The notes under the pieces: generated by a model
Databases searched by the model: none
Told to the model about the DNA's origin: nothing
The model's input: only the letters and a program-made list of their open reading frames with translations
From: Schmidtea polychroa
Taxonomy: Eukaryota
NCBI GenBank assembly: GCA_044892525.1
Contig: CM097885.1
Location: 157,170,001-157,234,000, forward strand
DNA length: 64,000 nt
Direction of reading: 5' to 3'
Position numbers and translations under genes: made by a program
Shown here: piece by piece, positions 40,295 to 64,000 of the stretch
How the letters are laid out: every line of letters begins with the position of its first letter
Position numbering within the stretch: position 1 is the stretch's first letter

Positions 40295-40327
<33 letters not shown>

Positions 40328-43300: not shown

Positions 43301-46300
43301 TAAAAGACCTTGGAAAATTATTGTAACCCCCATTTCCCATTTTGGGTGCCCGAAAAAATTCCAGGTTCGAAAATATATTCATGTGTGTCATTTGAGTTAA
43401 GGCCTATCTTGTTTTTTTACTTTCTGGTCTCATTTGCAGACAATTTTTCGAAAAACACATACAAAAAAGTATTCATAAGATAATTCCATTGAAATATATC
43501 CGAATTGGATGAATCTTTTAAAAAATTTTCATTTGAATCTATTCGTTTTCCGAAGAATTTTATTTTTATGTTAAAATCACCTATTTTTGTTACAATATAA
43601 AATAATATTGATTTTATATTAACAATTGAAAATTAAATAAAGACAAAACTAATTCTAATGGAGATTGTCTGGTAATATCGATTAGGTTTTGGTTTCAGTT
43701 TCAATGTTCATTTCAAGGAGTCAAAATTCCAAAATTTTTGAATGCACAATAAAAATTCATCACTATTCGTTTTTTAATATTCGTAAATTTTAACCAACAT
43801 TCAATTCAACAACGTTTAACCGTTCAACGACACATCATCAACAACTTTTAGCTTTAGCTCAATCAATTTCATATGGTTTTCTAAAATTTCTAAAATCAAC
43901 AAAACAGCACTATTGTTCTTGGGATAGTGGAAAATCATGCAATTGACAGCAAAATTTTCACTAATGAAACTGCAATTAATGGGATTTAACAAATTTAATG
44001 GCCTATAATGTAGTTCATTATGAGCACAACGCGTTAAAATTGATCCTCTACGTGACGTAAAAATTACAAAAGGGTCAAATTTTAAGGTCAAGGTCAATTT
44101 AGGGTCTTTTAAAGATTGACAATGTTAGTTTAAGGGTAAAATTTCACTAAAACGAGGAGGAGCGAGTAAAACTTGCCAGAACGCTCATAGCACACTAATA
44201 TATATTTTTCTTTTCACCTAATTGAAAGAGCCCAGCTTTGTTTTTAGTATAAGAAAGAATATTTTAAAGTCCTTTTTTAATTTCAAATATTTTTTTAAAA
44301 TGTTTTTATAAAATTTACTGCTTATAAATAAATATTTATTTCCGAAGTTTTGATAAACTATTTTAAGTTATATTTCTTCGCTTTTCAGATTTACGTTTAG
44401 AAATAATTCTCAATTCCAATTTGTCCTTGATTTTTAATATTTTTAGATGACGTAATATTTATTTATCATGCCATATTTATTTATTATGTAATCAATATTC
44501 AAAATTTCTCAATTTATTTGATGTGAAAAGTTGAAATTTTGAATTGATAAAATCGTAAATCTGAAAAAGCTGAGTAATTTTAACTTGAATTCTTTTCAAG
44601 TGGGATTTTAAAATTTTGATTTATAAAATATGTAATGTCAAAAGTAATAGAGATGATTTTCTAACAATTGATGATAAAGTATAAATTATAACTCAAATAA
44701 TCAACCAGTGTTCAATAGAAGTAGTTTACCAACGAAACTGCAAATTATGACGAAAACCGATAAAAGTTTTGTTTGAACATTTTTGTACGGAATTTATTGT
44801 TATATTGAATTCCGATTGTCGAAGTGGTACATCTAATCAAATATTTACTCTTCGTAGTTTTACTCACTGGTTCTTATGTGAATTGCCATTCGAATCGCTT
44901 TGGAGTTGAATGTCAATTCTGTTACTTAAATTTGATGAAATTTTTTCTATTATAAGCAACATATATCTAGGCATTAGCAATTCATATCCATAAAAAGTTT
45001 GTGTGATATCTCTCAAAACGCGACACCGGTCACAAAGCCAAATAACAGTCTTCACATATATATCTAGTTTCTTTTCGGAGTTTCTTTTCTCATTTGGTAT
45101 ATTGCTCAAACAGCAAACGGAACAACGACGTATTGGTGCCTCTTTCCCGACATTTGGATAAATTATCTTTGGGAATTGCCTTTCTGTAAACCGTAATCGA
45201 TTTCTTTCATGTGATAAATGGCCGCCTTTTTTGTGAAGTTAGTTTTTTAAGATCCATCTTGGTATATAACGCCATCTGCCTTTCAGTACCGTCAAGAGAT
45301 AAATGATGAGTCCGGTAATCATACATAGATGTAGTAGAACAAAGCAATATATTTTTGATCCGCTAATCGGGAGGATGTGAGAAGACAAAACGGATTAAGA
45401 ATAATTATTTATTTCTTAGTAAATCTCATGATGACAAAATATGTGAAAAGATATCCTGTTAAATAAAACTATATATATGTACTATAAGGGCTCTACGAAT
45501 CCGAAAGGAAATTAAAACAAATCGATAATCTTCGAAAATAATTCTGTCCGAATGTTTCTGAGTTGTTTTATTGATTAAAATTCTTTTTTTAAGTGGTTAT
45601 ACTCAAAAGTATGGTGTAGAATATTTTCTATAATTGTTATTGTTACCGATGCTTGCATGTGTCCATGTCAGTAATATAGACAATGAAATTAATATGGCGA
45701 TGTGAACGAGTGAAATTGGAGAATTATTTAATGGGTTATATTGGTCATTCACAATATCTATTAGATGATATGTATTCATTGTCTTTTTATAAATCTCTAT
45801 TAGCCATTTGACACAGAATGCTCTACTTTTATGACAAACAGAATATATACACACTCCACAATTTATACACACAAACACAGAGACAACAATAACATCCAAT
45901 CAAATGCATGCATGAGAAAATTATGAATAATGTCAACGATCTCGACAATATATCGCCTATTTGTTGACATTGATGAATAATAGTAGTAGTGAGTTACGAA
46001 GTAATTTTAATGTATTCCTATCACAAATAAAATATTTCTAGCCTTATTTCCCAATGAGTAAACTATGAATAAGAAACTTATTAATAATTATATTTTTAAT
46101 TTAAAAATTTTTCCTTTTTTTCAAAAAAAAAACTCCAATAAATCTGGAATTAATAAATTTATTTCAATTGATAGATTAATGCGGAATTTAACAAAAAGAT
46201 ATACAAGAATATCACAATATATTATTAAGTCTTTATATAATTACCAGCACCAATTATAATATCTTGATGAACACAAAACCAAGCCATTTTACCCTCTTTT

Positions 46301-49300
46301 CCATTGTAATTTTTAAATATGACTTTAGTTGCTCTGTTTATTTTTTTTTCTATCTCGTCATGACACCTTACGCTATGGGATACTGTATCATGAACCTTAC
46401 AACTTTGTTTCTGTTCCGGTTCATATTTACCTACAATATTCATTGCATTATCAATTAGTTCTCTTAACCTGCATCTTTTTCAAATGCTACCTGATAATTA
46501 ATTTCCTTCAAATCCGTTTCATTGTTTAAATCAAATAATTCCTCTAAGTAATCTTAATGAGTTGTAAAAAGAGCTTTTTCAACAATTGCACTTATTATTT
46601 TTTCACTGTTGGCTAAAATTTGTACTATACCTTAACAACTATTTATATTTTCATTCGGTTACCTAATCCAAGAACAATATTATTGAGGATACTTAAATAA
46701 TGAAAATTATATAAAATAAATAGGAGATTGCTCCAAAATTCTCAAGAATTATGAGAAATTAAAAATATGAAGAGGAAATTGCAAAAATCAATAAGATCAA
46801 AAAACAAAATACGACAAAGTCGTTATTAATTTATGAGTTCAAATTAAAAAGAGAAAACAAACAACAAAATGGAAATTAAAAATTACTTTATCTAGGCAGC
46901 TTGGTCAAGATAACGAATAAACCACCGGAAAAGGTGGGGAAATGATAAAAGCAAACCAAATTGCATATCTTACCAACTGTCGGAGATGGCAGCAATGAAT
47001 TGAAATGACTCTAATTGTATGAGAGAAAACGAAAATAAAATTGGAATTATCTTGGAAGTGTCAGCAAATAACAACCTATAAAAGGCAGAGGAACACCTGG
47101 AGAAACGATAGGGGAAATCGAGAAGAAATTGAGACAAGAAAATAGTTAAAAGTTTTGGAAAAAAAGTAATACTGAAACAAAAAGCAAATAGGAGATTGAC
47201 ACAAGTATATTGAGGAAGTTCGATTGAAGAAGCAATTTGACTCACTGTGTCGTAATTATGTTAGTAGAAATCGAATTGATTGTAATTGCGACAGAAAATA
47301 AATATTGAGAAAGTGTCATTCTTGTTGATACTTCAAGTTACGCTCGGAGTCAAATCAGTTTCAATACATTTCGCCAACAACCATATTAATTGGTCAAGGT
47401 TATGACCTTTGCATAGATCTCCGAAAGACCTTTCGAATGATACCCTTGGTTGAGGGTTTGACCTTATTTAACCTTATTTAAAAATTGAGGAGTCAACTGA
47501 CGACCATTAAGTCACCAAATGAGTCATACCGATGAGTAATACTGATGAGTCATAAATTAAAAAACCATGGCGGTAGAGATGGGGTATGAGTCATATGTCT
47601 TTGTTCCTGGCTTCTCATTCCACCCTACTATATGCAGTCCATTGATCAAAATAGCAAATTTGTAAGAATTTATAAAAAATAATTGTGAAAGTTTGCATAA
47701 AATTTTAATGTGATATAAAAATTTTAATTTTGAAAAAAAGGAAATGAAATTTATAGCAACGTTTATTTGGATAATTAGATTAAAAATTTTGTTTAAATAT
47801 CTGAAATTCAGAAGTTGACAATTTGGATTAGTAAAAACAACAAAAAAGACTTGATTTGCAAAATGAGCCGAATAACAATTTCGTTGTGGCTAACCCATAC
47901 AATATGATATTTTTTGCCTTTACGTTCAAAATTTGTAAAATTAAATTCCGTGGATTCCTATAGTAAATATAGTTAATAAAAAATATCGGAAAAATCTATA
48001 TAACTTATCAATATAAGCAAAAATATTCAATTTCTTTAGTGCAGTAATATTATTTTATTATTTTATTGATATATAATGCGCAATGTGCATTGCACATATA
48101 TAGAAACTAGAATCTCGCAAACGAGCAATTTGTATATTCGCCCTCAAATACAAACATGTCCACACGTAGTTTTCATATCTTTATGCTCGCTGGCTAATTT
48201 TTTCGATTGTAGATTAAAATTATCCTAAATATTTCACAGCACACTACCGTGCCGCAGCACACAGTTTGACAGACACTGAAATAAAGCAAGAAATTAAGTT
48301 TATTATACAATTGTAAATAATAATATTATTAACAATACTTATGAAAATAAAATTATAAAATGGTTTTTAAAATAAATTAATAAAATTAAATATTAATTAT
48401 TTATGAAAATTTCCTTTGATAAAGTCTATATAAAATTTTAATTAAAAATCGTTTTAAATTTTTGGGTTTATACAAATGAAATTTGTTTGTTCTCTTTTGA
48501 AATTGGAGTTGAAAACTGCCGCTATGCAATAGAATTTTCTAATAGAAATCATAGTCGATTTATTTTTCCGTATTGAATCAAATGGCAAATAATGATTTAT
48601 AATAGTGATGCTATTTATTTTAAAATATGTTCTTTTGGAATTAAATTCTCAACAAAAATTGCTGAGTTAAAAAATTAAATTTGAGTTAAACAATCGCCAG
48701 TTAAATCTTGTATCTTTTCAAATTTCCTATCCATCAAAAATCACTTAAAAATGCAGTATTGAAAATTCGTGTTAAATATAAGAAAAGAAATAAAAAGAAA
48801 AAAAAAGAAATAAAAATAATGGTAATTAAATAATCTTCCAAAAAAAAGATTACCAATGCTTTTTTATGTTTAGCTAATGTATTTATTAAGCTTTTTCTAT
48901 TATCTATTCGCCGAAAAATTTCCTGGGTTCTGATTGATAGATAAAATAATACTTTTTCATTTCATTTTTTATATAAAATCGACAATATAAGAGAAGAGAA
49001 ACAATTACCAACAGATTAGGTAGCATTATCAATATGGGAGAGAAATACGCTAATGAACACAATCGACTGTATAAACAATGAATCCATTAATTAACATGAA
49101 ATTTCTGAATAGATAATTGGAAAGGTTCTATTTTTAATGCTTGGATTAATATAGACCTGTCCTTGATTATAGTCATTTTTATGGAACTTTTTTTAAAGTT
49201 TTGAATCAAATAAATTCTCGATTTTTTTGAGATGCAAAAATACTAATAAATGGAGCAATTTCCTATTAAAGAAGTTACATTATGAAGTTGTAAGTAACAT

Positions 49301-52300
49301 ATATTTTGCATTCTAAGAAATAGTCTTTGCTTATAATTCTAAATAAGTTCGAAAACATCTATGACAGTGTTATCCAAACTTTTTTGACCCACGGCACACT
49401 TGGCTGATTTAAAAATTTTCGCGGCACACCTAAATTTTTTTTTGCTTTGCAATTTTTTATTGCACTTTTACTAATCTTTCAATAAGAAATGAAAAACTTA
49501 TTTACTTGAAATAAATTTAATGTAAAAAATTTTAAATTTAGAAAAATTAGTGAATGAAAAATTCATAAAACATTGTTTTGACTTTTTTAAAAAAAATTTC
49601 ACGGCACACAGTTTGGACAACGCTGATCTATGATGTGGAGTTTCAGAACTGCTTATATAATTTCACAGATTTAAGTTGCATTGGAATTTTTTAAGCGAAC
49701 CCATGTAATTTTGATTCTTCTTGCAATCTTCAATATATTTGATTAATATCATCATAAATATGATTGGCACACATATCGTGCAACATTTTGCTGTTTCCAC
49801 GAATTGTGTAATATGAGTGTATAATTCGCGAAATCTGTAGAATTTCCTCCTGTTATCGGATTGTAAGGCTACTTCTTTTCATCTATTTGAAAGTATTTTT
49901 CGAAACAAATAACATTTAGTCAAATACTCTTGATAGTGATTAATTAATATAAAAGTTGTCAACTCTGGAAGTCAACAAAATCTGCCTGACTAGTTGATTC
50001 ATATAATTCACAGAAATGGGTCGAACAACAAATCTTTTCAAAGTTAAATATCAATAGCCCATCATTCGCTATTTGTCCATATTCATATCCAAATTGATGA
50101 AAAATGCAAATAGTCAGCTTTTGGTTTGATTGATTGGTTTTGTTAGATGGATAATAGATGTATTTGAAAACCTAACAGTAATTATTTAACTAATTCCGTC
50201 TATTTTAAAATCGTATTTAATTCATTGCATTGACATCCAAAAAAATCTAATTATTCCTCATAACAATCGATTAAACTTTGAGAATAAATGTATATATCTT
50301 AAAAAACCAAAAGACTTATGAAGTAATATAACATTAGCAACGTTTCGTAAAATCCATTCGAATTGCACATTTTTCCGGGGAAAATATTTAAATATTTTTT
50401 GTTTACGCTGATGATAAAAATTTTATTTGGGTACGCATGTATTCCATAGTAGTTATAGGGTTAGATGTTACGAGTACATTGGTACATAAAATATATTGAA
50501 AAGCATTCGTGTCCAACAACAAATAAAATTTCAAATTGTGCGACGATATACTTTCTTACAAGTTTATTATTACTGAATTGTGTTGACTATTATAATCTTG
50601 ATAAAATATTATCGGAATCATTTCCCATCTAAAAATACTTATTATATATTGTTGTTTTATCTGAAATATCTTTAAATTTTAATTATTAAAAGTTTTTATA
50701 AAAATTTTTTGTAGGAAATTTGTATATTTTTTCGGAAATCGTTGTTGAAGTATTCTGAAACAGTTAATTTTAATAATATATTTTAATTTTGTTTTTTTAC
50801 AAATTACCGATATAGTTGATGAAAATTTTCTATGAAGAAGATGCTCTAGCATTAATTTTTTTTATTCTTTTACCGTTAATTTTTTATGTTTAAAAAGCTT
50901 TGATGAAAATTCGTATAAAAAATTCGTATATTTTCTAAAAACAAATGAAAAATTTTAATAGTTAATCTTTTTTAATTTATTTGAATTCTTTGAAACATGA
51001 CTTTGAAATAACCCATCGATATTCTGTTGAATGTGTCACACCTTAGAGGAAAATGAAATTTATCAGTTTAATATTGGGTAAATGGTAGATTTACTATGTT
51101 AAAAAATAAAGTAATAAATTAAATTAATAAATCAATATAACTTAATTATAAAATTAAAAACACTGCAATTAAAAAAATATTTACTTACACAAAAATTAAA
51201 TAAAATCCATAATTATTAATCCATTAACCAGGAATAGTTTAATAAGATCAACAACTCATTAAATCTCTTATTTTTTGTAATGTTGTATTCCCAAATAAAT
51301 TGTACTAAATATACCGATTGAATCTCACTTGAAACGCCTCTTTTTACGTCCATTATTACCAACTCTGCCCAGAATACTAGAATTTGCTGATAAATAATAC
51401 ATCATTGCCTCACGAAGCAACGAAACCCAATATTCAATTCATATCTAATATCTTGTAATTCTTCCCCTTTCATACAACGATAAAAAAGTTTTACTATTTT
51501 TTTGTGTTTATCTTACTTTTCACAATGAAAGAGTTTGCACGAATAGATTCCTGATATCGACATGTCTGAATACAGCACTAGTGATAACCATCCACATAAT
51601 TCATATTTTTAACATACCGTAAATGCCGGTTTTCGCATCGTTTACACAGTTTAAAAATCGGTATCAGACCAAAGCGGGCTAAAAATTCCTTTGTATTGGT
51701 ATGATCAAGAAACACATTGTCGAGATAGTTTTCGTTAATATTTATGGCACGTACTTTGGCGTCTGAAAGAATTGACTGCTTCGGAATTATAAAGAATTGT
51801 GTTTGTTTTGGCATGGATGTGCTAATTTTTTTAAATTTATAATTAATTTATATTGCTTTAACATAGTAAATCTACCATTTACCTAATATTGTTTTAAAGT
51901 ATCAATATAATTAATCAATAAAACAATATATTTCATTGATTTATTTTATGAAAAATTCTCCAAGTACTTGTTATAGCTAGAAAACTTGTGAAATAATTGA
52001 ACTAACATTAAGTAAATATTTTATGATCGATAAATATTTGTGTCAAGGTACTGGATTTGTACGTTATTCAAGTGCAGATGAAGCACAGCGTGCAGTAGAT
52101 CATATGAATGGACGTAAATTGATTCTTGGAAATGATGACAAGCCTGTCATTTGTAAATTGGCTGATAAAGGCGGCCGAAGAATGGCTCATGGAGGTGGTC
52201 AATCATTATCGGATGGTCTTCAACATCAATCTGATGGAGATATTCAACATCATTCCAATGGTGTAATGTCAGGACACTCTGTGTCTGGTGATGCGGACAA

Positions 52301-52994
52301 AATTAATGCCGCATACAGTGGTTTACAGGTAATGTCTAGTCAACCATATGGATCCCACCAAGGACATTCATGGCTACCAGCAGGTCATGCCAGTCCGGAT
52401 TTATTGGCTCAGGAACTTCAATCAATGGGTTTAACTAATGGTTATACTACTTTACTACCAGGACTTGTACAAGCATCGCCGCTGTCAGTTTCTGCATACG
52501 GGGATGAAAATGCGGCCCAACAGCAAGTTCTTGCACATATTCTTTATCAAAATAGTAGGCTAATGGCTGCTGCTAACTATCAACAACCTCAATCTGCCGC
52601 ACAAACTCATCACCATCAACAACAGCAACAATCTCAACAATCCATGATGCAGTGGCAACATCATCCCCAGGCACCTGCTAATGGAGGGGGTCTTTACTAT
52701 ACCACATCTACGGAACCGATGACACCTGCTACTGCAGCTTATTCTCAGCTGATTTATCCGCATCATCAATACGCTAATCGACCTCCTAGATCTATCATTC
52801 CCACCGCTGCTGTCGCTGCTGCTGCTGCTGCCGCCGCCGCCGCCGCCAACATGAAGTCGTCCCAGCCTCCATCAGTATTGGACCAAGCAGCTGTTATTAA
52901 TGGTCAGAGTCCGTCCAACATAATCTCCACCAATCAATGCGTAGTTGTTAACGGCAACGGTACCTTGGATTCTCATCAAACCAATAAGATGTGA
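36440..52994 (+). CDS. RBMS: Two-RRM RNA-binding protein, RBMS/MSSP/Alan shepard-like
   Basis: Exons 36440-36844, 39693-39852, 39929-40038, 40095-40239 and 52048-52994 splice in frame. RRM1: SKTNLYINGL...KCRGSGFID. RRM2: NVYVRNLP...GTGFVRY...PVICKLADKGG, matching RBMS TNLYIxGL / PLLCKFADGG. Q/A/H-rich tail. The first exon and start codon are less certain. Confidence 0.85.
39693..40239 (+). CDS. RBMS: RBMS-like exons 2-4: RRM1 and first half of RRM2
   Basis: Introns 39853-39928 and 40039-40094 (GT-AG); RNP2 and RNP1 motifs visible after splicing. Confidence 0.9.
40258..40326. repeat. Compound (TA)n/(TG)n/(TCTG)n microsatellite
   Basis: TATATATATATGTGTGTGTGTCTGTCTGTCTG directly visible. Confidence 0.9.
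40640..42394 (-). mobile_element. hATm-like DNA transposon deletion derivative carrying transposase C-terminus
   Basis: TIRs TAGGGTGGCCCA / TGGGCCACCCTA extending into about 70-bp imperfect inverted arms; 8-bp TSD ATATATAT. ORF 41158-41949 has PGAMHRAR, APLNDF, HLWYISEELVTLALFD and VVNDRAERGV. The subfamily name comes from remembered terminal and motif conventions. Confidence 0.8.
44985..45330 (-). mobile_element. piggyBac (PGBD4-like) transposase C-terminal Cys-rich remnant
   Basis: RLRFTERQFP...RRCSVCC, frameshift, RKETRYICEDCYLAL*PVSRFERYHT. Confidence 0.75.
48240..48278. mobile_element. Isolated right end of a hAT MITE related to 49365-49625
   Basis: GCAGCACACAGTTTGACAGACACTG resembles the 3' end CGGCACACAGTTTGGACAACGCTG. 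Confidence 0.5.
49365..49625. mobile_element. hAT (Charlie-like) MITE
   Basis: TIRs CAGTGTTATCCAAACT / AGTTTGGACAACGCTG; perfect 8-bp TSD ATCTATGA; internal CGGCACAC subterminal repeats. Confidence 0.92.
51077..51883 (-). mobile_element. Merlin (IS1595/ISXO2-related) DNA transposon, internally deleted
   Basis: Perfect 27-bp TIRs GGTAAATGGTAGATTTACTATGTTAAA; perfect 8-bp TSD TAATATTG. Remnant FLARFGLI...CKRC...DGYH..C...C..SIR..SF plus C-terminal QSVYLVQFIWE. Confidence 0.88.
52048..52994 (+). CDS. RBMS: RBMS-like last exon: RRM2 second half and low-complexity tail
   Basis: Phase-1 acceptor CAAG; GTGFVRYSSADEAQRAVDHMNG...VICKLADKGG; polyQ and polyA tracts; TGA stop. Confidence 0.9.
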
Positions 52995-54771
52995 TTTGAT
53001 CATGTTTTAATTTTAATAAATTGCCAAGACAGAAATTGCAAATAATCGAGAATCCAGTGTGAGATTGAGCTGTTAACAGTATTACTCCGGATCGATCAGC
53101 CGGTGTCCTAATTTATTGTTTCATCTACCATTTTCTTTTTTTTGATATCGACTGAACCAGCGCCAACCGCCAAGATGCCAATAATAATAATAATAATAAT
53201 AAGGTGTGTACTGTGTGTATATTTCTATTTAAGATAAATACACTGTTATCGAGATCACCCTTCCTCATTCACCTTTTGAAAAAGACAGTTGCGATAAATT
53301 ATTCGGTTCACAATATGGAGAGACTCTTGCCTTACTGTTGTGAATAGTAACATGATGATGTTGATGCTGATAGTGATTTGTATGATTTGCGATCCGGTTG
53401 TGCGCTCATCTTCTTGTGTACAGTAATAATATTGTGTTCGGTCGGTCGATCTGTATGTAAAACTTTTGACTTATCGCGTGTGTGTGTGTGTGTGTGAGAG
53501 CACGTATGATGATTGAAAGAATGTGAATAATTCAAATGCAATTATAATTTTGATGACACCCGACTACTGACTAAGTAATCTCTTATTTTCCATTTTAGAT
53601 ACATTTGCAAGGCGTTTTTATGACATTTTTGTAACGAGCAATTTTTGAAGATTATTCTCTCTCTTGACCAGTTTTACAGAAATGAATTTAATGTTTTTGT
53701 GTAATTTTCTAAGAATGTTGAGAAAAACGATAATAATAATTTTCGCCCATCCTGGTGGTGATTACTGCTATTGTTATTGTAGAAATAACATTTGTTATTA
53801 CTTTTTGTTGGTGTATTTTTGATATGTCAGTTGAAATCTGAAGCCCATGTGGCCGATGAATCTTTGTGACTGATAAGAATTATCGGCTTTGTTTTGGTTG
53901 GAGTTTTCAAATACCTCCGACATAAATTTTGTAAGTAGTTTCCATTTTTGAGATAATTTTCTCTATTGATATTCAAATACAACCAATTCACAATATTTAT
54001 TTTTTATTTTGGAATTAAATCATAGTTTTATTCAGATTATTTCAACAGCTTTGAATATGATTTAAATGATGTTGTAGAAGTTTTAAATAGAATTTTAATG
54101 GTGGAATATTACGGAACATGGATTTTTTATCAGATGGTTGCTGGGTTATGTAATGAAACAGGAATATGAATTTCCACATTTTGCATGGGATAGTCATGCT
54201 TAAAATTTCAGAAGGCCATTATGGCAATATTTGTAGGCTAATATTTTTCTATGGATTCAACAATTTTTTTTTAAAGTCATTTTATTTTCTATTCTCTAAA
54301 TCAGTATAAAGTTATAAATTAATCTTCGAAACCGAATGTATTGTTATCCACGGCATAAGTTGTAGGTTGTAAATTTTTTTGCTCATACTATTAGCGTTTG
54401 ACGGAAAGAAAGGCAAAACCGAAAAGATTTACATTCACGGGGACATCCCTTCAAACGCGTTCATAATTATTTAAATTCCTATCTGTGCTCATGGTAATGA
54501 CCATGTTGTTGATGTGCGCAATGGTCAAGAGCCAGTCAGCAGGTGAGCTTCATTACTAGCATTACTCATTTTACTCTCTATTCGGGTTCTGGACTGCCGA
54601 TAGAAAGGCTTCTGTCAAAAAAAGAACTATCGGATGTTGATTTTGTAATGATAAATTATAGTTATTATTCAGAAACGGATATACAATAATTGATATTTAA
54701 GATATGATAGGAACAATATTTTAATTTGAATACTGAATGTATATTTTCGAAAAGAAGCATATTTCACAAAA

Positions 54772-54960
54772 ATCACAAAGAATTTGCTTCGGCATCGATC
54801 AGAAGCTCACCTAGGTCAAACAGAGTGTCATTCACACTTCATCTGAACGAGGACGAACCAAGTCCCTCCAATCTGTTGACTTTGGGCTGGCTTCTGCAGA
54901 GTCCGGATAAATTCATCTTTATCCGAACACGAAAAGCAGGCTTTCAGTTAGGTATTTTTT
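54772..54960 (-). pseudogene. Decayed copy of unknown CFSC-coiled-coil ORF family (copy 2)
   Basis: Minus frame NT*LKACFSCSDKDEFIRTLQK...IGGTWFVLVQMK...DRCRS matches LRPCFSCADK...EGTWFSPPQMK...EHCRD of ORF 61743-62501. Not in the supplied ORF list. Confidence 0.75.
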
Positions 54961-55329
54961 GTAAAGGAAAGAATAAAAGTACAACACAGCATGAATTAGC
55001 GGTTTGCAGCAATTATAGTTGGGTATTTTGTGCAAGTCGACATCAATGTCTGACTCCTTTGTGTTCTTTCCGAAATTAAGTAAACAACCCAACACAAAAA
55101 TCTTTAGTCGAAGCTAATACAGTAACACTTTAGTTACACTTTTTATTAAAACGTACACACATATTTGTTTTTTAATAATTTTAAAATGTAACGTAAAATA
55201 AACAATTTATTTTACAAATACATTTTGCCTTTTGTCAATTTCATTTTTTATATTGTCAGTTCTCTTTTCCATTCGTCAATTTCATTGTAAAAATGCTATA
55301 TTTACAAATATTTATAAATTATTTTTAGA

Positions 55330-55830
55330 GCTGCAAATTATCTTGCAATGAGCCGCGGGTTGGCCGGTGATGGTTTAGCAGAACGGGTAATACGAACGGT
55401 TCGCTATATGATCGTGACATTTTTAAGTGATGGTCGAACTGGAGAGTGTTGGGACGACATTATGCCGAAAATTGAATATTCTCTAAACTCAACAACACAG
55501 AATACTACGGGATTTTCGCCAATGGAAAGAGAGGTTAATATACATGGAAAGAATTCATTCATAGATTTTAATCGAAAACAAGTATTATTGACAGCACAGA
55601 ACAATATTATGGTAGTGGCAGATAAAATGAGATCAAGAAATGCAGATAAGAACAGTCTTCGCCATTTTGAGGTGGACCAAAGAGTTCTAGTAAAAATGGA
55701 TCCACATAAGAGATCAAAACATTGTAATTTGAGCTAGGATATCCAGATGGGAAAAGATGCGAAAAATTGAATGGCTGAAAGAGTATCACAGTTCTTGAAG
55801 AAGGGGAGAGTGACGATATTTAGACTGTTA
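55330..55830 (+). mobile_element. Gypsy 3' remnant: integrase C-half, PPT and start of 3' LTR
   Basis: GLAERVIRTV...WDDIMPKIEYSLNSTTQNTTGFSP...FEVDQRVLVK; PPT GAAGAAGGGGAGAG (55797-55810) followed by TG at 55811. Confidence 0.8.
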
Positions 55831-56295
55831 TTTTTTTTTAATATTCGGATGTTATATTAAATATATTATTATTATATAATATTTGAAAATAGCTTTAATG
55901 ATTATTAATGGTAATGTTACTATACTAATTTTATTATTTTTCTATTTATAGTAATTATTTATTTCTATATTCTATTTATAGTAATTTACATTATTCTAAT
56001 AATAATTTTCTACTAACATAAGGCTTTAATTTGTACAATTTAGACTATTCCAAGCCCAACATATTAAAAAATGTTTAATATATACAATCTTGTTTTTATT
56101 ATTTCTATCCTATACAAGAATGCCTTAGCTGTACTTTCAGAGCTCGTATTTTCAACCAGTCCTGTGTCGCTAGTAGATGGTTTGGGCACCGCGAAAACAG
56201 GACTCCGCCAGAACAGTACCCCCACCCCCGGTCAATTTGAGAACAAAGACAATGAGTCATCCGATGACTCATACAACAAAGACAATGACTCATAA

Positions 56296-56965
56296 AAAAT
56301 TATTATTATTTTTCAAAAATATTATTAACTGTGCTGGCGGAGTCCTACTTTTCGTGACCCCAAAACATAGTCTGAAACTTAGAATTTTTTAAATATTTAT
56401 AGTTCATTTTGAAGCCCAGACGGAGATCTATCTTTTAAACTATAAAAATAATTTTTATCATTAATAATAAAAAGGTTATTAAGGTTTTGGTCAGAGTCAT
56501 TTTAATCATTTTAGGGTAAATTATTATTATTTTTCAAAAATATTGTTAACTGTGCTGGCGGAGTCCTACTTTTCGTGACCCCAAAACATAGTCTGAATCT
56601 TAAAATTTTTAAAAATCAATGTCACGTTTTGAAGCCCAGACGGAGACCGATCTTATAAGATATAAATAATTATTTTATCATAATTATTATAAAAGTTATT
56701 AATTTTTTAGTCCGACACTGATTGATGAAAAAATTATTATTATTTTTCAAAAATATTATTAACTGTGCTGGCGGAGTCCTACTTTTCGTGACCCCAAAAC
56801 TTAGTCTAAATCTCAAATTATTTTAACAATTTATAGTTCATTTTGAAGCCCAGAAGTAGACAAATATTTTGAGCCATAAAAATAATTTTTATCATAAGTA
56901 GTATAAAAGTTACTAATTTTTTAGTCAGACACTAATTTATAGCAAATTATCATTAATTTTCAAAA
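56296..56965. repeat. Tandem repeat, about 213-221 bp unit, three copies plus a partial
   Basis: Core AACTGTGCTGGCGGAGTCCTACTTTTCGTGACCCCAAAAC at 56327, 56548 and 56761; TTTTGAAGCCCAGA also repeated. Confidence 0.93.
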
Positions 56966-57496
56966 TCACACAATCAGGTAAGACTTTATTAATTTTCAAA
57001 ATTTTATGAAGAAATTTGCGGGTGATTCATCACTCACNNNNNNNNNNNNNNNNNNNNNNNNNNNNNNNNNNNNNNNNNNNNNNNNNNNNNNNNNNNNNNN
57101 NNNNNNNNNNNNNNNNNNNNNNNNNNNNNNNNNNNNNNNNNNNNNNNNNNNNNNNNNNNNNNNNNNNNNNNNNNNNNNNNNNNNNNNNNNNNNNNNNNNN
57201 NNNNNNNNNNNNNNNNNNNNNNNNNNNNNNNNNNNNNNNNNNNNNNNNNNNNNNNNNNNNNNNNNNNNNNNNNNNNNNNNNNNNNNNNNNNNNNNNNNNN
57301 NNNNNNNNNNNNNNNNNNNNNNNNNNNNNNNNNNNNNNNNNNNNNNNNNNNNNNNNNNNNNNNNNNNNNNNNNNNNNNNNNNNNNNNNNNNNNNNNNNNN
57401 NNNNNNNNNNNNNNNNNNNNNNNNNNNNNNNNNNNNNNNNNNNNNNNNNNNNNNNNNNNNNNNNNNNNNNNNNNNNNNNNNNNNNNTACAGTAAAA

Positions 57497-57830
57497 ATTT
57501 TGTTTAAATCGTTAATTATATTTTTTGTTTTAATTATCAATTACATAATAATATCATTTTGTTTAAATCGTTAATTATATTTTTTGTTTTAATTATCAAT
57601 TACACAATAATTTCATTTTGTTTAAATCGTTGATTATATTATTTTTTTGTTTTAATTATCGATTATGTAATAATTTAATTTTGTTTAAATCGTTGATTAT
57701 ATGACTTTTTTGTTTTAATTATCAATTACACAATAATTTCATTTTGTTTAAATCGTTGATTATATTATTTTTTTGTTTTAATTATCGATTACGTTTGTTT
57801 AAATTATCGATTATGTAATTATTTAATTTA
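57497..57830. repeat. AT-rich minisatellite, about 58-62 bp unit
   Basis: TTTTGTTTAAATCGTT(A/G)ATTAT...TTTTGTTTTAATTATC repeated about five times between N gaps. Confidence 0.88.
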
Positions 57831-58572
57831 TCATTATTATTGGGAAAGAACGCCCGCACGGAAGATTAAAATTATTATTATTANNNNNNNNNNNNNNNNN
57901 NNNNNNNNNNNNNNNNNNNNNNNNNNNNNNNNNNNNNNNNNNNNNNNNNNNNNNNNNNNNNNNNNNNNNNNNNNNNNNNNNNNNNNNNNNNNNNNNNNNN
58001 NNNNNNNNNNNNNNNNGAAAATTCTTCTTATTATTATTATAATTATAATTTGCAAATATTCATAAAACCTAATTTCTACGTCCATTTCATGCTTTTCATC
58101 ATTTTCATCATTTGTGTGAATATTTTAATAATTTTCAATATTTACATAATTTCCAACATTTTCATGATTTTCATAATTATTAATATTTTCATGGATTTTT
58201 AACATTTTCATAATTTTCTACATTTTCAATATTTTCATTATTATTTCAGGAACATTTTAATTAGTTACATGAACATTTTCATCAAATATTTTTCAAAGTA
58301 ATATTTCCGTTAGCTTATTTTCAAANNNNNNNNNNNNNNNNNNNNNNNNNNNNNNNNNNNNNNNNNNNNNNNNNNNNNNNNNNNNNNNNNNNNNNNNNNN
58401 NNNNNNNNNNNNNNNNNNNNNNNNNNNNNNNNNNNNNNNNNNNNNNNNNNNNNNNNNNNNNNNNNNNNNNNNNNNNNNNNNNNNNNNNNNNNNNNNNNNN
58501 NNNNNNNNNNNNNNNNNNNNNNNNNNNNNNNNNNNNNNNNNNNNNNNNNNNNNNNNNNNNNNNNNNNNNNNN

Positions 58573-60565
58573 GACATAATATTTTGTCCCCCTATGGGTA
58601 CTGTTCACACTCAACAGGTTGCAAGGGTACTAGTCATGTATATTTGTATTGTTATACAATATGATGTTACTTAAACATTTGAAGGTTCAACCATGGTTAC
58701 AATTTCTACATTTTGAAAACTCTAATTTGATTGGCTATCTCAATTTTTATAAATGTAAAAACAAAAGTAATTTAGTTATTAAGAAATTTATTTATTACTG
58801 ATGATTTCTACAAGTAAAACTGTTGAATATGAATGTGTAAATCACAAAACACATTTGGTAACTTTATTATTTTGTCAATATTTTTTATATTGTCATTTAT
58901 AGCAAGGAAGTCCTACTAGAAATAAGGAAAAATTAAGTCCAACCTATTCCGAAGATAAGCGTTCATTGAAATTTTTTAACAACACAGTTGAAGATTTTAT
59001 AAATAATCATGATACTTACAGTGATAAGCAAATCATAAATATTTTAAAAATTTTCAAACATTCCTCTATTGAATATTTGATTGATTTATTTAATTATGAT
59101 AAATGCATTTTAAAGTTATCTAGTTATTTAATGTATTTAGAAAAAACAGTGGTAAACAACGATTCACTGAATGAATACTTTTGGAGTTGTATGTATTTAA
59201 GGTTGAAACCGGGATATAGTAGATTGATTTATGAATGGATAGCAAAAGCCGATTTGATTGAAAATAAGCTAACGGAAAAACTGAACGATGTTAAGAAAAG
59301 GTATTTGACTTGTTCAATTTGTAAAGAAAATCGAGTTTCGGTTTTGTATTTACCGTGTGGTCACGTAATTGTTTGTTCTAAGTGTCACGAAAAGAATGTT
59401 CACAATTGTCAAGCCTGTTCAACACTGATTAATGAATATCATACTATATACATGTAAGTTCTCAATACAAATCAATACAATATCAAAGTCAAATGAATTA
59501 TTACCATACATAATGACGGTACTATAATGTAGAAAATTTTCAAACATTGAATAATATGAAATCATCTTGGTAATTAAATATATTGGGCGCAACTACCAAA
59601 TGGTGATGATATGATGAAGGGATACCCATGAGTTCATCAAAATGGGAAAAAGATCTTCGCAAGAACCATGAAGATGCTGGATGTATTGGTTATTATTTTT
59701 TCGGAAATAAATGTTTTAATTTGTTTTTATAAATTTATTGTTTTATTGTAATACTTTTTGATTAAAACATATTCATTTTGTTTTAATATTTGTATTAATT
59801 TTTTTATATAGTGTTATTTATATATATGGAAATTTACAATTATATATACAATTATATTTACAATTATTATAAATCATAATGATGCTTTTCTTCTGTTCAT
59901 TGATTCTCCTCTGATATTACTGCCATAATCATCTTCGACAAAATGTAAAGATAATATTTCTAGTGTCTTTGTTAATCATGCCCATTTATTGCAAAGTCTT
60001 TGTTAATTATGCACTTGTATTGCAAATTTATTAGTCATACAATTATATTATTTTTTTTTCATGCCCTGACATAATATTATTATTTTTAATTTTATTATTA
60101 TGATTATTTTATTTAACAATACCATATAGCAAATTTTTAGGCAATTTAGTGAAAAGTACATGGTTATTTTAAATATAGGAATTTCTTAAGTAAAATATTG
60201 CCAGGTAAATTTACCAATTTAGTTAGAAATCCATGGTTTTTGACTGTACCATTTAATTAAAATATTCTTGGATTCATAACAATTTTTTTTATATAGTTGA
60301 TAGTAATACCAATTATCTCAATTATTTAACTAGAAACATAACAGAATTCTTAGGTAATATAGTATTTTTGTGTATTTTTTAGTTAATTTATAAATATTAT
60401 CTGACATTTTGATGTATTAATGCAATATACAACAAATTAATCAATATAAACCATAGCATATTGTAAGTTTTTATATATAGTCTGAATTTATCCGACAAAA
60501 TATTCTGTCCCCCTATGTGTATTTGTCGTAAGGGTACTGCTTACATTCAACATGTCGCAAGGGTA
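58573..60565. repeat. Pair of about 57-bp direct repeats (58573-58629 and 60494-60565) bracketing the RING ORF
   Basis: GACA(T/A)AATATT(T/C)TGTCCCCCTATG...GGTACTG..ACA.TCAACA.GT.GCAAGGGTA; the second copy has a short insertion. Confidence 0.8.
58966..59457 (+). CDS. Intronless protein with C-terminal IAP/Mdm2-type RING-HC finger (probable E3 ligase)
   Basis: CSICKENRVSVLYLPCGHVIVCSKCHEKNVHNCQACSTLINEYHTIYM*: C3HC4 with the LPCGH signature at the extreme C-terminus. The ORF starts at TTG, so the true start is uncertain. Confidence 0.8.
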   Translation: MKFFNNTVEDFINNHDTYSDKQIINILKIFKHSSIEYLIDLFNYDKCILKLSSYLMYLEKTVVNNDSLNEYFWSCMYLRLKPGYSRLIYEWIAKADLIENKLTEKLNDVKKRYLTCSICKENRVSVLYLPCGHVIVCSKCHEKNVHNCQACSTLINEYHTIYM

Positions 60566-61742
60566 TATTAATTAAAGCACATGTATATTAGTTAAAAATT
60601 CTTAGGTAATTTAGTGAGAAATGGATGATCATAGATATCAGAAATTCGTGAATATTTTGAATGTAACTTACCGAATTCTCATTTCGAGCGACTAATTTAT
60701 TGGTTAACTTTGTCATGTTTAGTCATTTAAAATAATATTTAGCAAAAGGTAAGATATGAATATTTAGTATTTCATAGGTAATTTATTCATCTAATGTTCA
60801 TTACAATAGCTAATATAACTTCGTGAGAAATGCATATTCATTAATAACAACATATATTTATTGATAATTTTGGTAGAAAGTCTTTATGATTTGGAGTAAA
60901 TTTCTGTCTTTGTTCGAGTCAAAAAAGGAGTCATAATAGAAACATGATCATTTGGTTATCATCTAACCAATTAAGGTGCTTATTAGTTAGAAATATAGGG
61001 TTACAATTCTTTTCTAATTTAATGAGATGATCATTGGGTGTAATATATCTTTGTGAGAAATATATGGTTATCATTTTTAAATAGGGATTTTTGAGTAACC
61101 AAAACAGGGATATTTTGTGTGAATAATTTAAGAATATTGGTTAATTTTCTCTTTTTTAGTCATTTAAAATAATATTTAACAAAAGTAATTTAGCAAAATA
61201 TTGTTGGTGTATGAAAGGGAGAAGAAATTTTCTTAGACAGACATACGATCTCATGCATTAGCCTCAAACTCATCCCAACATACATCACATGACTTCGTTA
61301 ATATTCCCTCATGCGAGCCCGTGGCGATGGTTCCACGTTGGTTCTGCCCACACGGGTTGGAGTGGGTTAATAGGTGAGCCCCTACCTTAGGACTACTACT
61401 AACCCCCTCGCGGTACAGGTTCCAAGGTGCCTTAGAAGGACTTACCCTCAATCTCATACATCCTCGGGTCGACCCTGGTCCAAATGGACGACCTTCATAC
61501 ATTGCCAAACATTTAGTTCATCAATTGAATCGGGTATTTCACTCATCGTTCACGTAAAATAACTCATTAAACATCGAATAAATATATTAAGTTTACAACA
61601 CACGTTATTTACAAAATAATAAAGGTTTCACTAAAATCCAATACACAATCACTAAAGATAAAATGAGAAGTTGTCATGTTCTAGAGAAGTGGTTGCGACT
61701 ACCTCCGACAAGGTAGATCAACCCTGTCGTCACCTCGCGTCA

Positions 61743-62501
61743 TTAAAAGACTTCTCCGTCGGCAAATACTTCATCAATGTCTACCGGCAGGCGACGGTCC
61801 GCGAGATACTTGATGCCCTCGGCCGGTACGATTCGGAATATTTCTTTGGCCGGTATCACGTGGGAACTTGAAATCTCTTTGAGGGTGGATTGAGCCACTG
61901 ATAATGAAGCTTCCAGCGCTGCCATCGCATCCCTGCGCTTCTGATTTTTGGCGGCCCTGGTTGGTCGTTTCCTTTTGCGAGAAGGTATCGGATTATTTGT
62001 GATGGACGCGGCAGAGGGTGCCACCAGGGCTGGAACGAAGATAGGGCCGGAAGAGTCACCTACTAAGGGTTGTTGATCGGATAATACCGGAGCTGGGATG
62101 GGCGGCAGATAGGAGCCATGCCCTTGACAGTTTGATGCAGACGCTTGAGACGTCTGATGGTGTAGTGGAAAGACATTAGTACTATCAAAAACGGGAAATT
62201 CCCGAACTCGTTTGGCCAATTCTGCCTCCGTGTAGACCTTGTGGAGGGCTTCGGATTGCGCTTTAATTGTCAGCCGTTGACAACCGCTTTCCTCCAGCAG
62301 GCTGTCCCTGCAATGTTCCAACCGGAGGATCTTCTTTTGCTCCTCCTTCATCTGTGGCGGGGAGAACCACGTGCCCTCGTAGAGGTCAATACGCTTCTTC
62401 AGAGCCCCGATATATTGATGTAATTGGGCGATATCCGCGTTCTTGTCAGCGCAAGAAAAACACGGGCGAAGCTCCTTGTTAGTGTTGGACGATGTAGACA
62501 T
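61743..62501 (-). CDS. Unknown 252-aa protein: CxxC, coiled coil, Pro-rich linker, basic NLS-like segment (intact copy 3)
   Basis: ATG-initiated, uninterrupted, GC-richer than flanks. Two decayed paralogues in the window share CFSCxDK, GTWF/QMK and EHC blocks. Polypyrimidine-AG directly before the ATG; TATAAAA at 62580-62586. Confidence 0.75.
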   Translation of the reverse strand: MSTSSNTNKELRPCFSCADKNADIAQLHQYIGALKKRIDLYEGTWFSPPQMKEEQKKILRLEHCRDSLLEESGCQRLTIKAQSEALHKVYTEAELAKRVREFPVFDSTNVFPLHHQTSQASASNCQGHGSYLPPIPAPVLSDQQPLVGDSSGPIFVPALVAPSAASITNNPIPSRKRKRPTRAAKNQKRRDAMAALEASLSVAQSTLKEISSSHVIPAKEIFRIVPAEGIKYLADRRLPVDIDEVFADGEVF

Positions 62502-63000
62502 CTAAAGATTGAATAATTTTCATGTTCCTCCGTAATATTCGTTTATGTGACATTTACAATGGGAATATGGGCTTTGAACTTTTATAAATCATCCTACTCG
62601 GTGATGCCCCGAAATTGTTACTATTCATCTGTACTCACATTCATTTAATCATCAACATTCAGTTTAATTCACCCAACCCATGCAACATTGAAGAAAAGAA
62701 AACGGGGAATTCTCAAAAATTTTACTTTCGGATTGGAAAATTCCGATCTACTACATGTTTATACATTTGGTACGGTCAATCATATCCCCTTATTATTTGT
62801 CGTAATTCTGATAATTAAAATCTCGTTACTAAGTTTTGTGAATTTGTGCGTATATAATAATTATACAATTATAATTTCACATCGCCGGCGTCTACCCGTG
62901 TCATATTAATTCCGATTAACGTTATCAAAAGACTGAAAATATTTTAACTAAAATCATGTTCTATATTATATTTAATTATTTTAAATATTTCACTGTAGGT

Positions 63001-64000
63001 GTTGTCATGGTAACACCGACTCGCATGTAGTTATGTAATATCCTTATTTTCTATGCATGCTGACATTCGTCATTATATCTGTTGAGGTGCAGGTGTCCTT
63101 TAAATTGTTATCAGCCTATGCCGGTGGAACACCTAATAATTCTGTTGTTTTAAGATTGAGAAATCAAATTCCTTGCTTCTACATGTAATCTCGTTAATTC
63201 TGAGAAACTTCAGGCGGTTACGTCATCGTACTATCAGTTGAAGTGTATGTGCGTCGTTGTGCAGGGGGACGAATGGATATGACGTGATGTTTGGACGTTT
63301 CGGTAGCTTAGCTTCAATCGACGTCACCGAAAATTTGCTGCTCTAACTGCAGATCAATTTATATGTTGTCTGGTGGAAATTTATCTAGTGCGCATACATG
63401 CAGTTATACTCTCAAGTCAAAACATTTGGAATCCCTGTAGGCTTCTCCAGAAAATCAGTAATATTAGACGAAACATGGAGAGAAAATTTATCGCAATGAG
63501 GACGGAGATTAATTATGCGTTTACTGAATACTACAATCAGATTCTCTCCTAGTGTATTAGTTCTAGATAACACCTGTCAATTCGTTCGCTCAGCGACGTC
63601 TACCTGAAACCGATACTCAAGATCTCTTATCAAACTACTAACGATTATTCCCTACACCTGACTCTAAGCTGGCTGAGATTGACCGGCGATTTCGCGATAT
63701 CTCCGACGACTATTTCTTTTAGACTCATGGTAAGTGTTTTGATAATTTATCACGAAATGTTGACTTTACTGACAGACAGAACGATTTTTTCTGATAACGG
63801 CGGATCAAGAGCGACAAGTTATCCTAAAAGTGCATCGGTGATGGATCTGACTGCTAATGCCCTGGCGATACAAATCCTGGAAATCTTCAATTCTTATGAC
63901 AATTAATACGAGGCTTGTTGGAATTTTTACGAAAAATGCAGATCTCTATTAACGGATGTTTAAACACCTGCTGTTCGAAAACGTGAACAATAGACTGTTC
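63001..64000 (+). pseudogene. Long decayed reading frame of unknown family (runs to window edge)
   Basis: One frame reads about 330 codons with only scattered stops (e.g. KFAALTADQFICCLVEIYLVRIHAVILSSQNIWNPCRLLQK...; SDNGGSRATSYPK); GC higher than flanks. Confidence 0.45.

What the first reader, a model, noticed from the sequence alone, without database searches (positions are those of the whole stretch)
61743..62501. Orphan CFSC-coiled-coil ORF family present three times in 64 kb; this copy is intact
Seen in sequence: this 252-aa ORF (LRPCFSCADK, heptad-like helix, GTWFSPPQMKEEQKKILRLEHC, Pro-rich linker, SRKRKRPTRAAKNQKRR) has two decayed relatives. They are at 31132 (+; LKPCFSCLDK...QMKELIQKVLLLEHC...KWKHLKCCERNARRRAK) and 54772-54960 (-; LKACFSCSDK...GGTWFVLVQMK). 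I recognise no host protein or transposase here. The copies are dispersed, in both orientations, GC-rich against an AT-rich background and highly diverged, and each starts right after a polypyrimidine tract. Inference: this is the cargo or structural gene of an unrecognised mobile or endogenous viral element family. The CxxC-zipper start loosely recalls L2/CR1 ORF1 N-termini, but no RT follows.
Basis: partly seen in the sequence, partly recalled or inferred. Interest (0 to 1): 0.78.

Follow-up and report, generated by a model that had tools for sequence, protein, structure and literature searches.

The report
Coiled-coil gene of unclassified mobile element
This is a real, intact gene of a new protein family, repeated and scattered through a flatworm-like genome; its product looks like a two-stranded coiled coil with an arginine-rich nucleic-acid-binding arm, most likely a helper gene of a jumping element whose type is not yet identified.

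Summary
The 252-aa ORF is real (minus strand, 62501-61743), and both decayed copies align above chance. It is not an orphan. Twelve unnamed database proteins share its core (36-42% identity for the ten measured), and 10 of the 12 are gene models fused to ten unrelated host domains, as expected of a dispersed repeat. Contigs from public runs pile up over the core; 7 of 9 listed variants fall at third codon positions. GC3 is 0.55 against 0.29 in host exons. CFSC is absent from all 12 relatives, so the L2/CR1 lead fails. What is conserved is a coiled coil (modelled parallel dimer, score 0.61, best control 0.01) and a downstream arginine-rich helix. The start codon follows a splice acceptor. Copies 1 and 3 share a convergent opposite-strand module with a 45/43-nt intron. 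No transposase, reverse transcriptase, capsid or known fold was found, and no whole genome was available, so the element's class and ends stay open. Best reading: a dimeric nucleic-acid-binding helper gene of an unclassified mobile element. This scan had no earlier record of it on other DNA.

The parts
61743..62501 (-). Intact 252-aa ORF (copy 1)
   Evidence: 7 of 9 listed run variants inside it at codon position 3, 6 of 9 synonymous
62235..62462 (-). Residues 14-89: two long helices joined by the GTW-x-x-P kink; modelled as a parallel in-register homodimeric coiled coil
   Evidence: AF2 helices 17-41 and 48-89, pLDDT mostly 85-90, 66 at the kink; dimer score 0.61 vs best control 0.01; W45, P48, L68, E71, Q75, R76, Q82 invariant in 11 rows
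62157..62234 (-). Residues 90-115: short helices and a conserved P-x-x-H end of the family core
   Evidence: P112 and H115 invariant
61866..61979 (-). Residues 175-212: Arg/Lys-rich motif running into a helix (candidate nucleic-acid-binding arm and nuclear signal)
   Evidence: 10 R/K in 16 residues; 9 or more in 7 of 12 relatives; helix 182-212
62502..62557 (-). Candidate 56-nt 5'-UTR intron ending at the AG just before the ATG (predicted, not shown spliced)
   Evidence: host Eph introns are about 47-50 nt (read from the sequence)
62579..62586 (-). TATAAAAG, candidate TATA box about 80 nt upstream of the ATG
   Evidence: sequence; consensus match only
61202..61557 (+). Convergent conserved module: probable last exons of a spliced partner gene (or a conserved terminal cis element); frame ends at TAA 61555-61557
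   Evidence: best match among 2831 window tiles is the equivalent place beside copy 3 (109.5 vs next 85.5; z 7.1); depth peak at 61288-61468
61374..61418 (+). 45-nt GT-AG intron with a TACTAAC branch site; holds the only stop of the frame between 61237 and 61554
   Evidence: 2 such introns in 61202-64000, reached by 5 of 300 shuffles; counterpart beside copy 3
61577..61623 (+). Two AATAAA signals after the partner's stop, in the AT-rich spacer between the convergent frames
61202..61212 (+). Left junction: the neighbouring very-high-copy repeat stops at 61201 and TGTTGGTGTAT begins; possible element terminus, not proven
   Evidence: 27 contigs leave the window behind 61201; the only other exact match in the window is 53806, same orientation relative to copy 3; a collinear alignment to 54376-54420 argues for a truncation instead
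63440..64000 (+). Divergent, stop-ridden coding-like frames with a 46-nt GT-AG intron at 63730-63775; may belong to the same element
   Evidence: no Pfam hit; multi-variant but low depth
31132..31683 (+). Copy 2, decayed (stops and frame changes); keeps the acceptor context, the core and the basic motif; no partner module found
54831..54968 (-). Copy 3, N-terminal remnant; the rest of the ORF is missing
54376..54655 (+). Copy 3's decayed counterpart of the convergent module, with a 43-nt intron remnant at 54543-54585 (degenerate 3' splice site, frame changes relative to copy 1)

Best explanation
The ORF is the helper gene of an old, multi-subfamily mobile element in a flatworm-like animal genome. 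It is probably transcribed from its own promoter, with a short intron removed just before the ATG (inferred). The protein forms a parallel coiled-coil dimer through residues 14-89 (modelled). This presents two Arg/Lys-rich helices on flexible Pro-rich linkers, which enter the nucleus and bind nucleic acid, most likely the element's own RNA or ends, to package, chaperone or position it for a separate mobilising enzyme (inferred). Host-type splice signals lie on both strands and the opposite-strand intron is shared by two old copies. I therefore favour a carrier that moves as DNA with convergent spliced genes (the layout of two-gene DNA transposons or a virus-like DNA element). The mobilising gene was not found in the window. 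Shown: ORF, multi-copy dispersal, selection on the frame, conserved core and basic motif, linkage to the module in 2 of 3 copies. Not shown: splicing, expression of this copy, binding, the element's ends and its enzyme. I put 'mobile-element gene' at about 0.85; the confidence below is for the whole statement.
For: Three diverged copies in both orientations. 12 unnamed relatives: 10 of 11 phmmer hits at E 6e-8 to 4e-4 plus 2 more by profile; 10 of 12 fused to ten different unrelated host domains. Summed contig depth over the core (62193-62373) is 3.6e5 and 3.6e4 in two runs, against 1.3e3-2.1e3 and 4-266 at 63098-64000 (not a copy number). 7 of 9 listed ORF variants at codon position 3, P 0.008. 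Loose ends of two contigs from runs guessed to be RNA read in register as RKRKRLTRSE (aa 175-184) and IEKTNVFPP (aa 105-113). GC3 0.55 vs 0.29. Dimer model score 0.61, best of 3 controls 0.01, runs agree in at least 87% of contacts, pLDDT 82; the mark was met by 21 of 30 solved microbial pairs and 0 of 23 single chains, and in eukaryotes by 17 of 29 pairs and 0 of 30 single chains. Interface positions are better conserved than others (0.75 vs 0.57, P 0.01). Basic motif in 7 of 12 relatives. Convergent module and intron shared by copies 1 and 3.
Against: No transposase, recombinase, polymerase or capsid hit in either flank. No terminal inverted repeat or target duplication could be shown. The partner's peptide is poorly conserved between copies 1 and 3 (33 of 2000 shuffles score as well, with frame changes), so the module may be non-coding. 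Copy 2 lacks it. Only 40 of 673 variant rows were displayed, so the third-position count is a small, filtered sample. The dimer mark was met by only 1 of 7 eukaryotic pairs without an older solved relative, and long amphipathic helices may pass by general likeness. Five of 12 relatives lack the full basic motif (models end in it or skip it). Nucleic-acid binding rests on composition alone.
Confidence: 0.42

Rival explanations
1. Spliced accessory gene (ORF3/env position, or carried in the LTR) of an LTR retroelement. The acceptor before the ATG is the subgenomic splice site, the conserved downstream module is part of the LTR ending in ...CCAACA at 61202, and the basic arm binds the element's RNA, possibly as a Rev-like export or packaging factor.
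For: Acceptor immediately before the ATG. ORF3s, including coiled-coil types, are described as separate units expressed from spliced messages (PMC5408684, passages). TG/CA-type 11-mer at the junction, repeated once beside copy 3 in the same orientation. The depth peak over the module is what solo LTRs would give. One relative hits Pfam REV at E 0.0007-0.0013, below the curated cut-off. PPPY in 2 of 12 relatives. Gypsy remnants lie within about 0.4-1.2 kb upstream of copies 2 and 3.
Against: No pol domain in the 1.5 kb upstream of copy 1. The neighbouring gypsy remnants face the opposite way. I saw no polypurine tract or primer-binding site at a fitting place (by eye). The 11-mer lies 172 nt from the intron in copy 1 but about 740 nt in copy 3, and copy 1's junction also aligns collinearly inside copy 3's module. 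The module has no excess RNA structure (z -0.65 and +1.52).
Confidence: 0.25
2. Coiled-coil ORF of a Penelope-like (Athena/Terminon-type) retroelement, which can keep introns; the module is an inverted pseudo-LTR with its small intron.
For: PLEs retain introns, carry a small intron in the pseudo-LTR 5'-UTR, and some have an ORF1 with coiled coil and NLS (PMC8557442, passages; PMC6431247, passages).
Against: No hammerhead by Rfam at E up to 5 in 58500-64000. No RT or GIY-YIG domain in either flank.
Confidence: 0.1
3. Accessory gene of a Polinton/Maverick or other endogenous DNA virus already known to fill this genome.
For: Earlier unchecked scan notes describe abundant Polintons with spliced genes in this genome. 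Convergent and divergent small spliced genes fit a DNA-virus layout.
Against: No look-alike in the scan's indexed windows, many of them Polinton windows. No true hit in IMG/VR or among predicted viral folds. No Polinton core gene in the flanks.
Confidence: 0.12
4. A lineage-specific host gene family (a nuclear coiled-coil regulator) that expanded by duplication and left pseudogenes.
For: TATA-like box, host-type intron and purifying selection fit a host gene. No mobility gene found.
Against: GC3 is about twice that of host exons. Relatives sit inside or beside ten unrelated genes. Two of three local copies are decayed and in opposite orientations. Depth is strongly raised.
Confidence: 0.08

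Closest known systems
Coiled-coil (CC) ORF3/ORF1 of bdelloid LTR retrotransposons and Terminons (PMC5408684, PMC6431247; passages read)
   Same: Small enzyme-less coiled-coil ORF in a mobile element; ORF3s are described as expressed from spliced messages.
   Different: No sequence link tested or found; no gag-pol or RT beside it here; a convergent intron-bearing module follows.
Helper genes of two-gene DNA transposons (Harbinger Myb/SANT, Kolobok KolX, maize MURB; recalled)
   Same: A non-catalytic gene facing a second spliced gene across a short AT-rich spacer.
   Different: No Myb/SANT or other Pfam domain; the partner is not recognisable as a transposase; ends unknown.
Lentiviral Rev and other arginine-rich-motif RNA binders (Pfam PF00424; lambda N and delta antigen recalled)
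   Same: Helical Arg-rich motif plus an oligomerising helical region, in a gene that starts behind a splice acceptor.
   Different: Only 1 of 11 aligned members hits REV, below cut-off. About twice Rev's size (recalled), with a 75-residue coiled coil far upstream of the basic motif. No structured response element found.
L2/CR1 and L1 ORF1 proteins (recalled)
   Same: N-terminal coiled coil followed by a basic nucleic-acid-binding part.
   Different: CxxC is not a family feature; no RRM, PHD or esterase domain; no ORF2; only a dimer was modelled, a trimer was not tested.

Membership tests
L2/CR1 ORF1 | Conserved CxxC/PHD before the zipper | tested here: not met
   CxxC in the 3 window copies, 0 of 12 relatives
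L2/CR1 ORF1 | RRM, esterase or PHD domain in ORF1 | tested here: not met
   no such Pfam family in the ORF or the 11 aligned members
L2/CR1 ORF1 | Endonuclease-RT ORF2 directly downstream | tested here: not met
   six frames of 61200-61747 without any Pfam hit at E up to 1; an unrelated repeat begins at 61201
LTR retrotransposon ORF3/env-position gene | Splice acceptor just before the start codon | tested here: met
   sequence context in copies 1 and 2; splicing itself not shown
LTR retrotransposon ORF3/env-position gene | pol upstream on the same strand | tested here: inconclusive
   none in the 1.5 kb available; the window ends at 64000
LTR retrotransposon ORF3/env-position gene | Paired TG...CA LTRs, PPT, PBS, target duplication | tested here: inconclusive
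   TG-starting 11-mer at the junction shared with copy 3, but a rival alignment exists; second end not in the window
Two-gene DNA transposons (Harbinger, Kolobok, ISL2EU, MuDR) | Second, convergent spliced gene | tested here: inconclusive
   module and intron shared by copies 1 and 3; coding status weakly supported
Two-gene DNA transposons (Harbinger, Kolobok, ISL2EU, MuDR) | DDE/D transposase | tested here: inconclusive
   the surviving ~100 codons gave no hit; too short and decayed to exclude
Two-gene DNA transposons (Harbinger, Kolobok, ISL2EU, MuDR) | Terminal inverted repeats and target duplication | not testable with these tools
   no genome held; far end outside the window
Penelope-like elements | Hammerhead ribozyme near the 3' end | tested here: not met
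   Rfam at E up to 5 found only two chance snoRNA matches; some PLE clades lack it
Penelope-like elements | PLE-type RT, with or without GIY-YIG | tested here: inconclusive
   none in the flanks scanned
Polinton/Maverick | pPolB, integrase, ATPase, capsid genes in the same element | tested here: inconclusive
   none in 61200-64000; element extent unknown
Lentiviral Rev (PF00424) | Arginine-rich motif | tested here: met
   9 or more R/K in 16 residues in the ORF and 7 of 12 relatives
Lentiviral Rev (PF00424) | Profile match above the curated cut-off | tested here: not met
   19.1 bits vs cut-off 22 in one relative; none for the ORF
Lentiviral Rev (PF00424) | Leucine-rich export signal and RNA-export activity | not tested
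   needs a reporter assay
bZIP factors | Basic region immediately N-terminal to the zipper | tested here: not met
   the basic motif lies about 85 residues C-terminal to the main coil; bZIP_1 at E 0.038 in 1 of 11 members
Hepatitis delta antigen | Sequence or structure match to delta antigen | tested here: inconclusive
   Atlas score 0.78, below lead level; not listed in the PDB profile or fold searches

The most novel reading that the evidence does not exclude
The family marks a class of animal mobile element not yet described: either an invertebrate retroelement with a Rev-like, spliced RNA-binding regulator (complex-retrovirus-style control outside vertebrates), or a multi-gene, intron-bearing DNA element whose mobilising enzyme belongs to no recognised superfamily.
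Probability: 0.15. Interest if true: 0.85.

Novelty: new variant of a known kind. Interest (0 to 1): 0.5.

Why it matters
It defines a protein family with no match in Pfam, PHROGs, NCBIfam, PDB, predicted viral folds or the large Atlas clusters, and gives a profile that can pull the whole carrier element out of planarian genomes in one search. It also shows that this repeat contaminates host gene models: 10 of 12 database records are chimeras. If the carrier is a retroelement, an arginine-rich spliced accessory protein would be a testable case of Rev-like control in an invertebrate. If it is a DNA element, it may be an unclassified superfamily. If it is the helper ORF of a catalogued repeat, the gain is only annotation.

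Tried and rejected
No whole genome was held, so copy counting and end-mapping could not be done. Word-indexed homologue search with the single ORF found none of 818 candidates; the full HMMER scan found the family. P0011 was dropped as a repeat-driven chance hit, leaving 10 of 11. Negative or uninformative: Pfam, PHROGs and NCBIfam; PDB sequences; Foldseek viral and PDB, no E under 0.001; VIA-align, only generic helical hairpins, Z up to 9.6; Atlas, best 0.84 twice. IMG/VR scans: searches found none; the one hit (L003) got no support from the family profile. The metagenome scan returned two loci that match only the glycine-cleavage part of the chimeric query, so it is negative for the family. 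The partner frame found no homologue among 92 candidates (weak evidence). No RNA holder was listed for the stretch; the RNA-guess runs gave sparse cover and no joint was listed for either intron; neither speaks for or against expression. An RNA-structure reading of the module was rejected. Simple local DNA alignment of the three copies was barely above shuffles; the tile comparisons were clearer. My first idea that 63000-64000 is a LINE endonuclease/RT linker rests on recalled likeness and got no Pfam support. TGTTGGTGTAT as a proven terminus was not accepted. Seven paper searches listed no description of this family; word searches cannot match a peptide, Repbase was not available, and no supplementary repeat libraries were read.

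Full report
OBSERVATION. The ORF is real and lies on the minus strand, 62501 to 61743, 252 codons plus stop. It is the longest N-free frame in the last 10 kb of the window. tblastn finds copy 2 at 31135-31483 (+; 58.5 and 36.6 bits, joint E 1e-16) and copy 3 at 54968-54831 (-; 30.4 bits, E 0.002). The best of 100 shuffled N-terminal queries scored 26.6 bits. Copy 2 has stops and frame changes but keeps a basic motif at its end. Copy 3 keeps about 46 codons. The ORF is 52% GC with GC3 0.55, against 0.29 for two host exons and 0.30 for a gypsy integrase. The tract before each start is a splice-acceptor context. In copy 1 a 56-nt GT-AG intron and a TATAAAAG box can be placed upstream; host introns here are about 47-50 nt (sequence printed). 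The host is an AT-rich animal; earlier unchecked notes call it flatworm-like. No whole genome was held.

THE FAMILY. Pfam, PDB sequences, the word-indexed search and the Atlas gave nothing for the single protein. phmmer over 1.84 billion representatives gave 11 hits; 10 match residues 22-123 at E 6e-8 to 4e-4 and one is a repeat artefact. A profile added two more. A profile of the 10 relatives alone recovers copy 1 (E 4e-26) and copy 2 (E 5e-11) but not copy 3. Over the core the ORF is 36-42% identical to those 10, which fall into at least two further subfamilies; copies 1 and 2 group together with moderate support (90/89, no starred branch). W45, P48, L68, E71, Q75, R76, Q82, P112 and H115 are invariant in 11 rows. 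CxxC occurs in 0 of 12 relatives; a stretch of 9 or more R/K in 16 residues occurs in the ORF and 7 of 12. Ten of 12 records are fused to ten different host domains (8 of 10, 2 of 2). The nine family records looked up are single-member and unnamed, so their species is not shown; a planarian source is my inference.

MULTI-COPY AND CODING. Contigs of four public runs were laid on 58573-64000 at 80% likeness. Summed depth over 62193-62373 was 3.6e5 and 3.6e4 in the two larger runs, against 1.3e3-2.1e3 and 4-266 over 63098-64000, with a second peak at 61288-61468. The tool warns that this is no copy number, so I use it only as a sign of many diverged copies. Of the 40 variant rows shown (of 673), 9 lie in the ORF: 7 at third positions (P 0.008) and 6 synonymous. 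Two contigs from runs guessed to be RNA continue, in register, as diverged versions of residues 175-184 and 105-113. They show relatives that keep the frame, not expression of this copy.

STRUCTURE. AlphaFold2 with 11 sequences gives helices 17-41, 48-89, 92-101 and 182-212, a disordered Pro-rich linker, and pTM 0.34. Fold searches return only generic helical hairpins. Two copies of residues 12-120 fold as a parallel in-register dimer over residues 14-89: score 0.61 in three runs, best of 3 controls 0.01, at least 87% shared contacts, pLDDT 82. The mark was met by 21 of 30 microbial and 17 of 29 eukaryotic solved pairs (7 of 16 animal; 1 of 7 without an older relative) and by 0 of 23 and 0 of 30 single chains. 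This supports self-association but does not show it; a trimer was not tested. Interface positions are more conserved (0.75 vs 0.57, P 0.01). C14 and C17 of both chains meet at the N-terminal end, so a metal clasp special to this subfamily is possible (inference).

SURROUNDINGS. About 190 nt past the stop, a plus-strand frame ends at 61557, followed by two AATAAA. Its only stop between 61237 and 61554 lies in a 45-nt GT-AG intron with TACTAAC. A second such intron sits at 63730-63775; two or more arose in 5 of 300 shuffles. The best match to 61202-61475 among 2831 window tiles is the corresponding place beside copy 3 (109.5 vs 85.5), including a 43-nt intron remnant (z 7.1). Of three listed exon variants two are synonymous, and two of three intron variants replace purines by T in the acceptor tract. 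Against a coding reading, the peptides of copies 1 and 3 align weakly (33 of 2000 shuffles as good) and differ in frame, and no homologue was found. Copy 2 has no such module. At 61201 a very-high-copy RING-bearing repeat stops (27 contigs diverge there) and TGTTGGTGTAT begins. Its only other exact match in the window is 53806, in the same orientation and 1.16 kb from copy 3's start, against 1.30 kb in copy 1 (about 0.001 by chance within 600 sites, 0.27 anywhere in the window, for 10 letters). Yet the same junction also aligns collinearly inside copy 3's module. It may be a true TG/CA terminus or a truncation.

MECHANISM. Shown: an intact, selected, dispersed gene of foreign composition, linked in two of three copies to a conserved opposite-strand module. 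Modelled: a parallel coiled-coil dimer. Inferred from composition and from known arginine-rich-motif proteins (recalled): the two basic helices bind the element's nucleic acid and carry the protein into the nucleus, as a packaging, chaperone or targeting helper for an enzyme encoded elsewhere. Splice signals on both strands are simplest for an element that moves as DNA (0.42 for the full statement). An LTR element with a spliced accessory gene is the main rival (0.25), because such elements package unspliced RNA and their ORF3s are expressed from spliced messages (PMC5408684, passages). Penelope-like elements keep introns and can carry coiled-coil ORFs (PMC8557442 and PMC6431247, passages), but no hammerhead or RT was found (0.10). 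A Polinton or viral accessory gene (0.12) and a host family (0.08) remain.

COMPARISON AND NOVELTY. It works like the enzyme-less coiled-coil or basic helper ORFs of other mobile elements, but it cannot be filed under any family. L2/CR1 ORF1 and bZIP fail tested features, Rev is met only by composition, and the DNA-transposon, LTR and Polinton tests are inconclusive for want of the element's ends. Seven full-text searches listed no description of the family (listings and abstract starts only). Passages of PMC11410931 and a term search of PMC8532177 did not mention it. Repbase and supplementary repeat libraries were not seen and may already hold the element under an unannotated name. The scan's own index had no look-alike.

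VERDICT. A real new protein family of a probably mobile element, class unresolved: new variant of a known kind, interest 0.5. There is about a 0.15 chance that it marks an undescribed element class or a Rev-like regulator in an invertebrate retroelement, which would merit 0.85.

Noticed in passing
window 58573-61201: Very-high-copy repeat (summed contig depth 0.6-4 million in one run) carrying a 184-codon open frame at 58903-59457 with a C-terminal RING finger (Pfam zf-C3HC4_3, E 2.8e-9). A 60-80-nt motif with a small hairpin and GCAAGGGTA recurs at 58573 and 60494; it recalls Helentron/DINE-1 ends (recalled, untested). 4 of 8 listed variants in the frame are synonymous.
   Followed up: partly
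database proteins P0001-P0013: 10 of 12 relatives are gene models fused to unrelated host domains; several enter the repeat within a few residues of the family's start Met, as a shared acceptor would cause. All looked-up ones are single-member UniParc-type records without names or taxa.
   Followed up: partly
P0002, P0003: A PPPY motif (late-domain or WW-binding type, recalled) about 20-30 residues after the basic motif in one subfamily; absent from the window ORF.
   Followed up: no
window 26100-29900 (-), 33961-36010 (+), 55318-55810 (+): Three decayed gypsy-type LTR elements: integrase Pfam rve E 4e-15; short direct repeats at 33961-34070 and 35899-36010.
   Followed up: no
window 41158-41949 (-), repeats at 40607-40777 and 42270-42431: 263-codon frame of raised GC3 (0.46) without a Pfam hit, between inverted repeats; looks like a DNA-transposon remnant.
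   Followed up: no
window 30046-30265: Small element with perfect 27-nt inverted ends (MITE-like) between a gypsy remnant and copy 2.
   Followed up: no
window 32724-32830 and 33700-33890: Pieces that read like the N-terminus of Hsp90 (recalled), interrupted by repeats; probably a pseudogene.
   Followed up: no
window 30600-31060 (-): Asn-rich decayed frame divergent from copy 2; no similarity to the flanks of copies 1 or 3.
   Followed up: partly
window 5271-23895 and 36440-52994 (+): Host genes: an Eph-receptor-like kinase with introns of about 47-50 nt, and an RRM protein (RRM_1 E 9e-5); family names recalled from the translations.
   Followed up: no
window 56281-56965 and 57487-57883: Two tandem repeat arrays, with units of about 220 nt and about 60 nt.
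   Followed up: no
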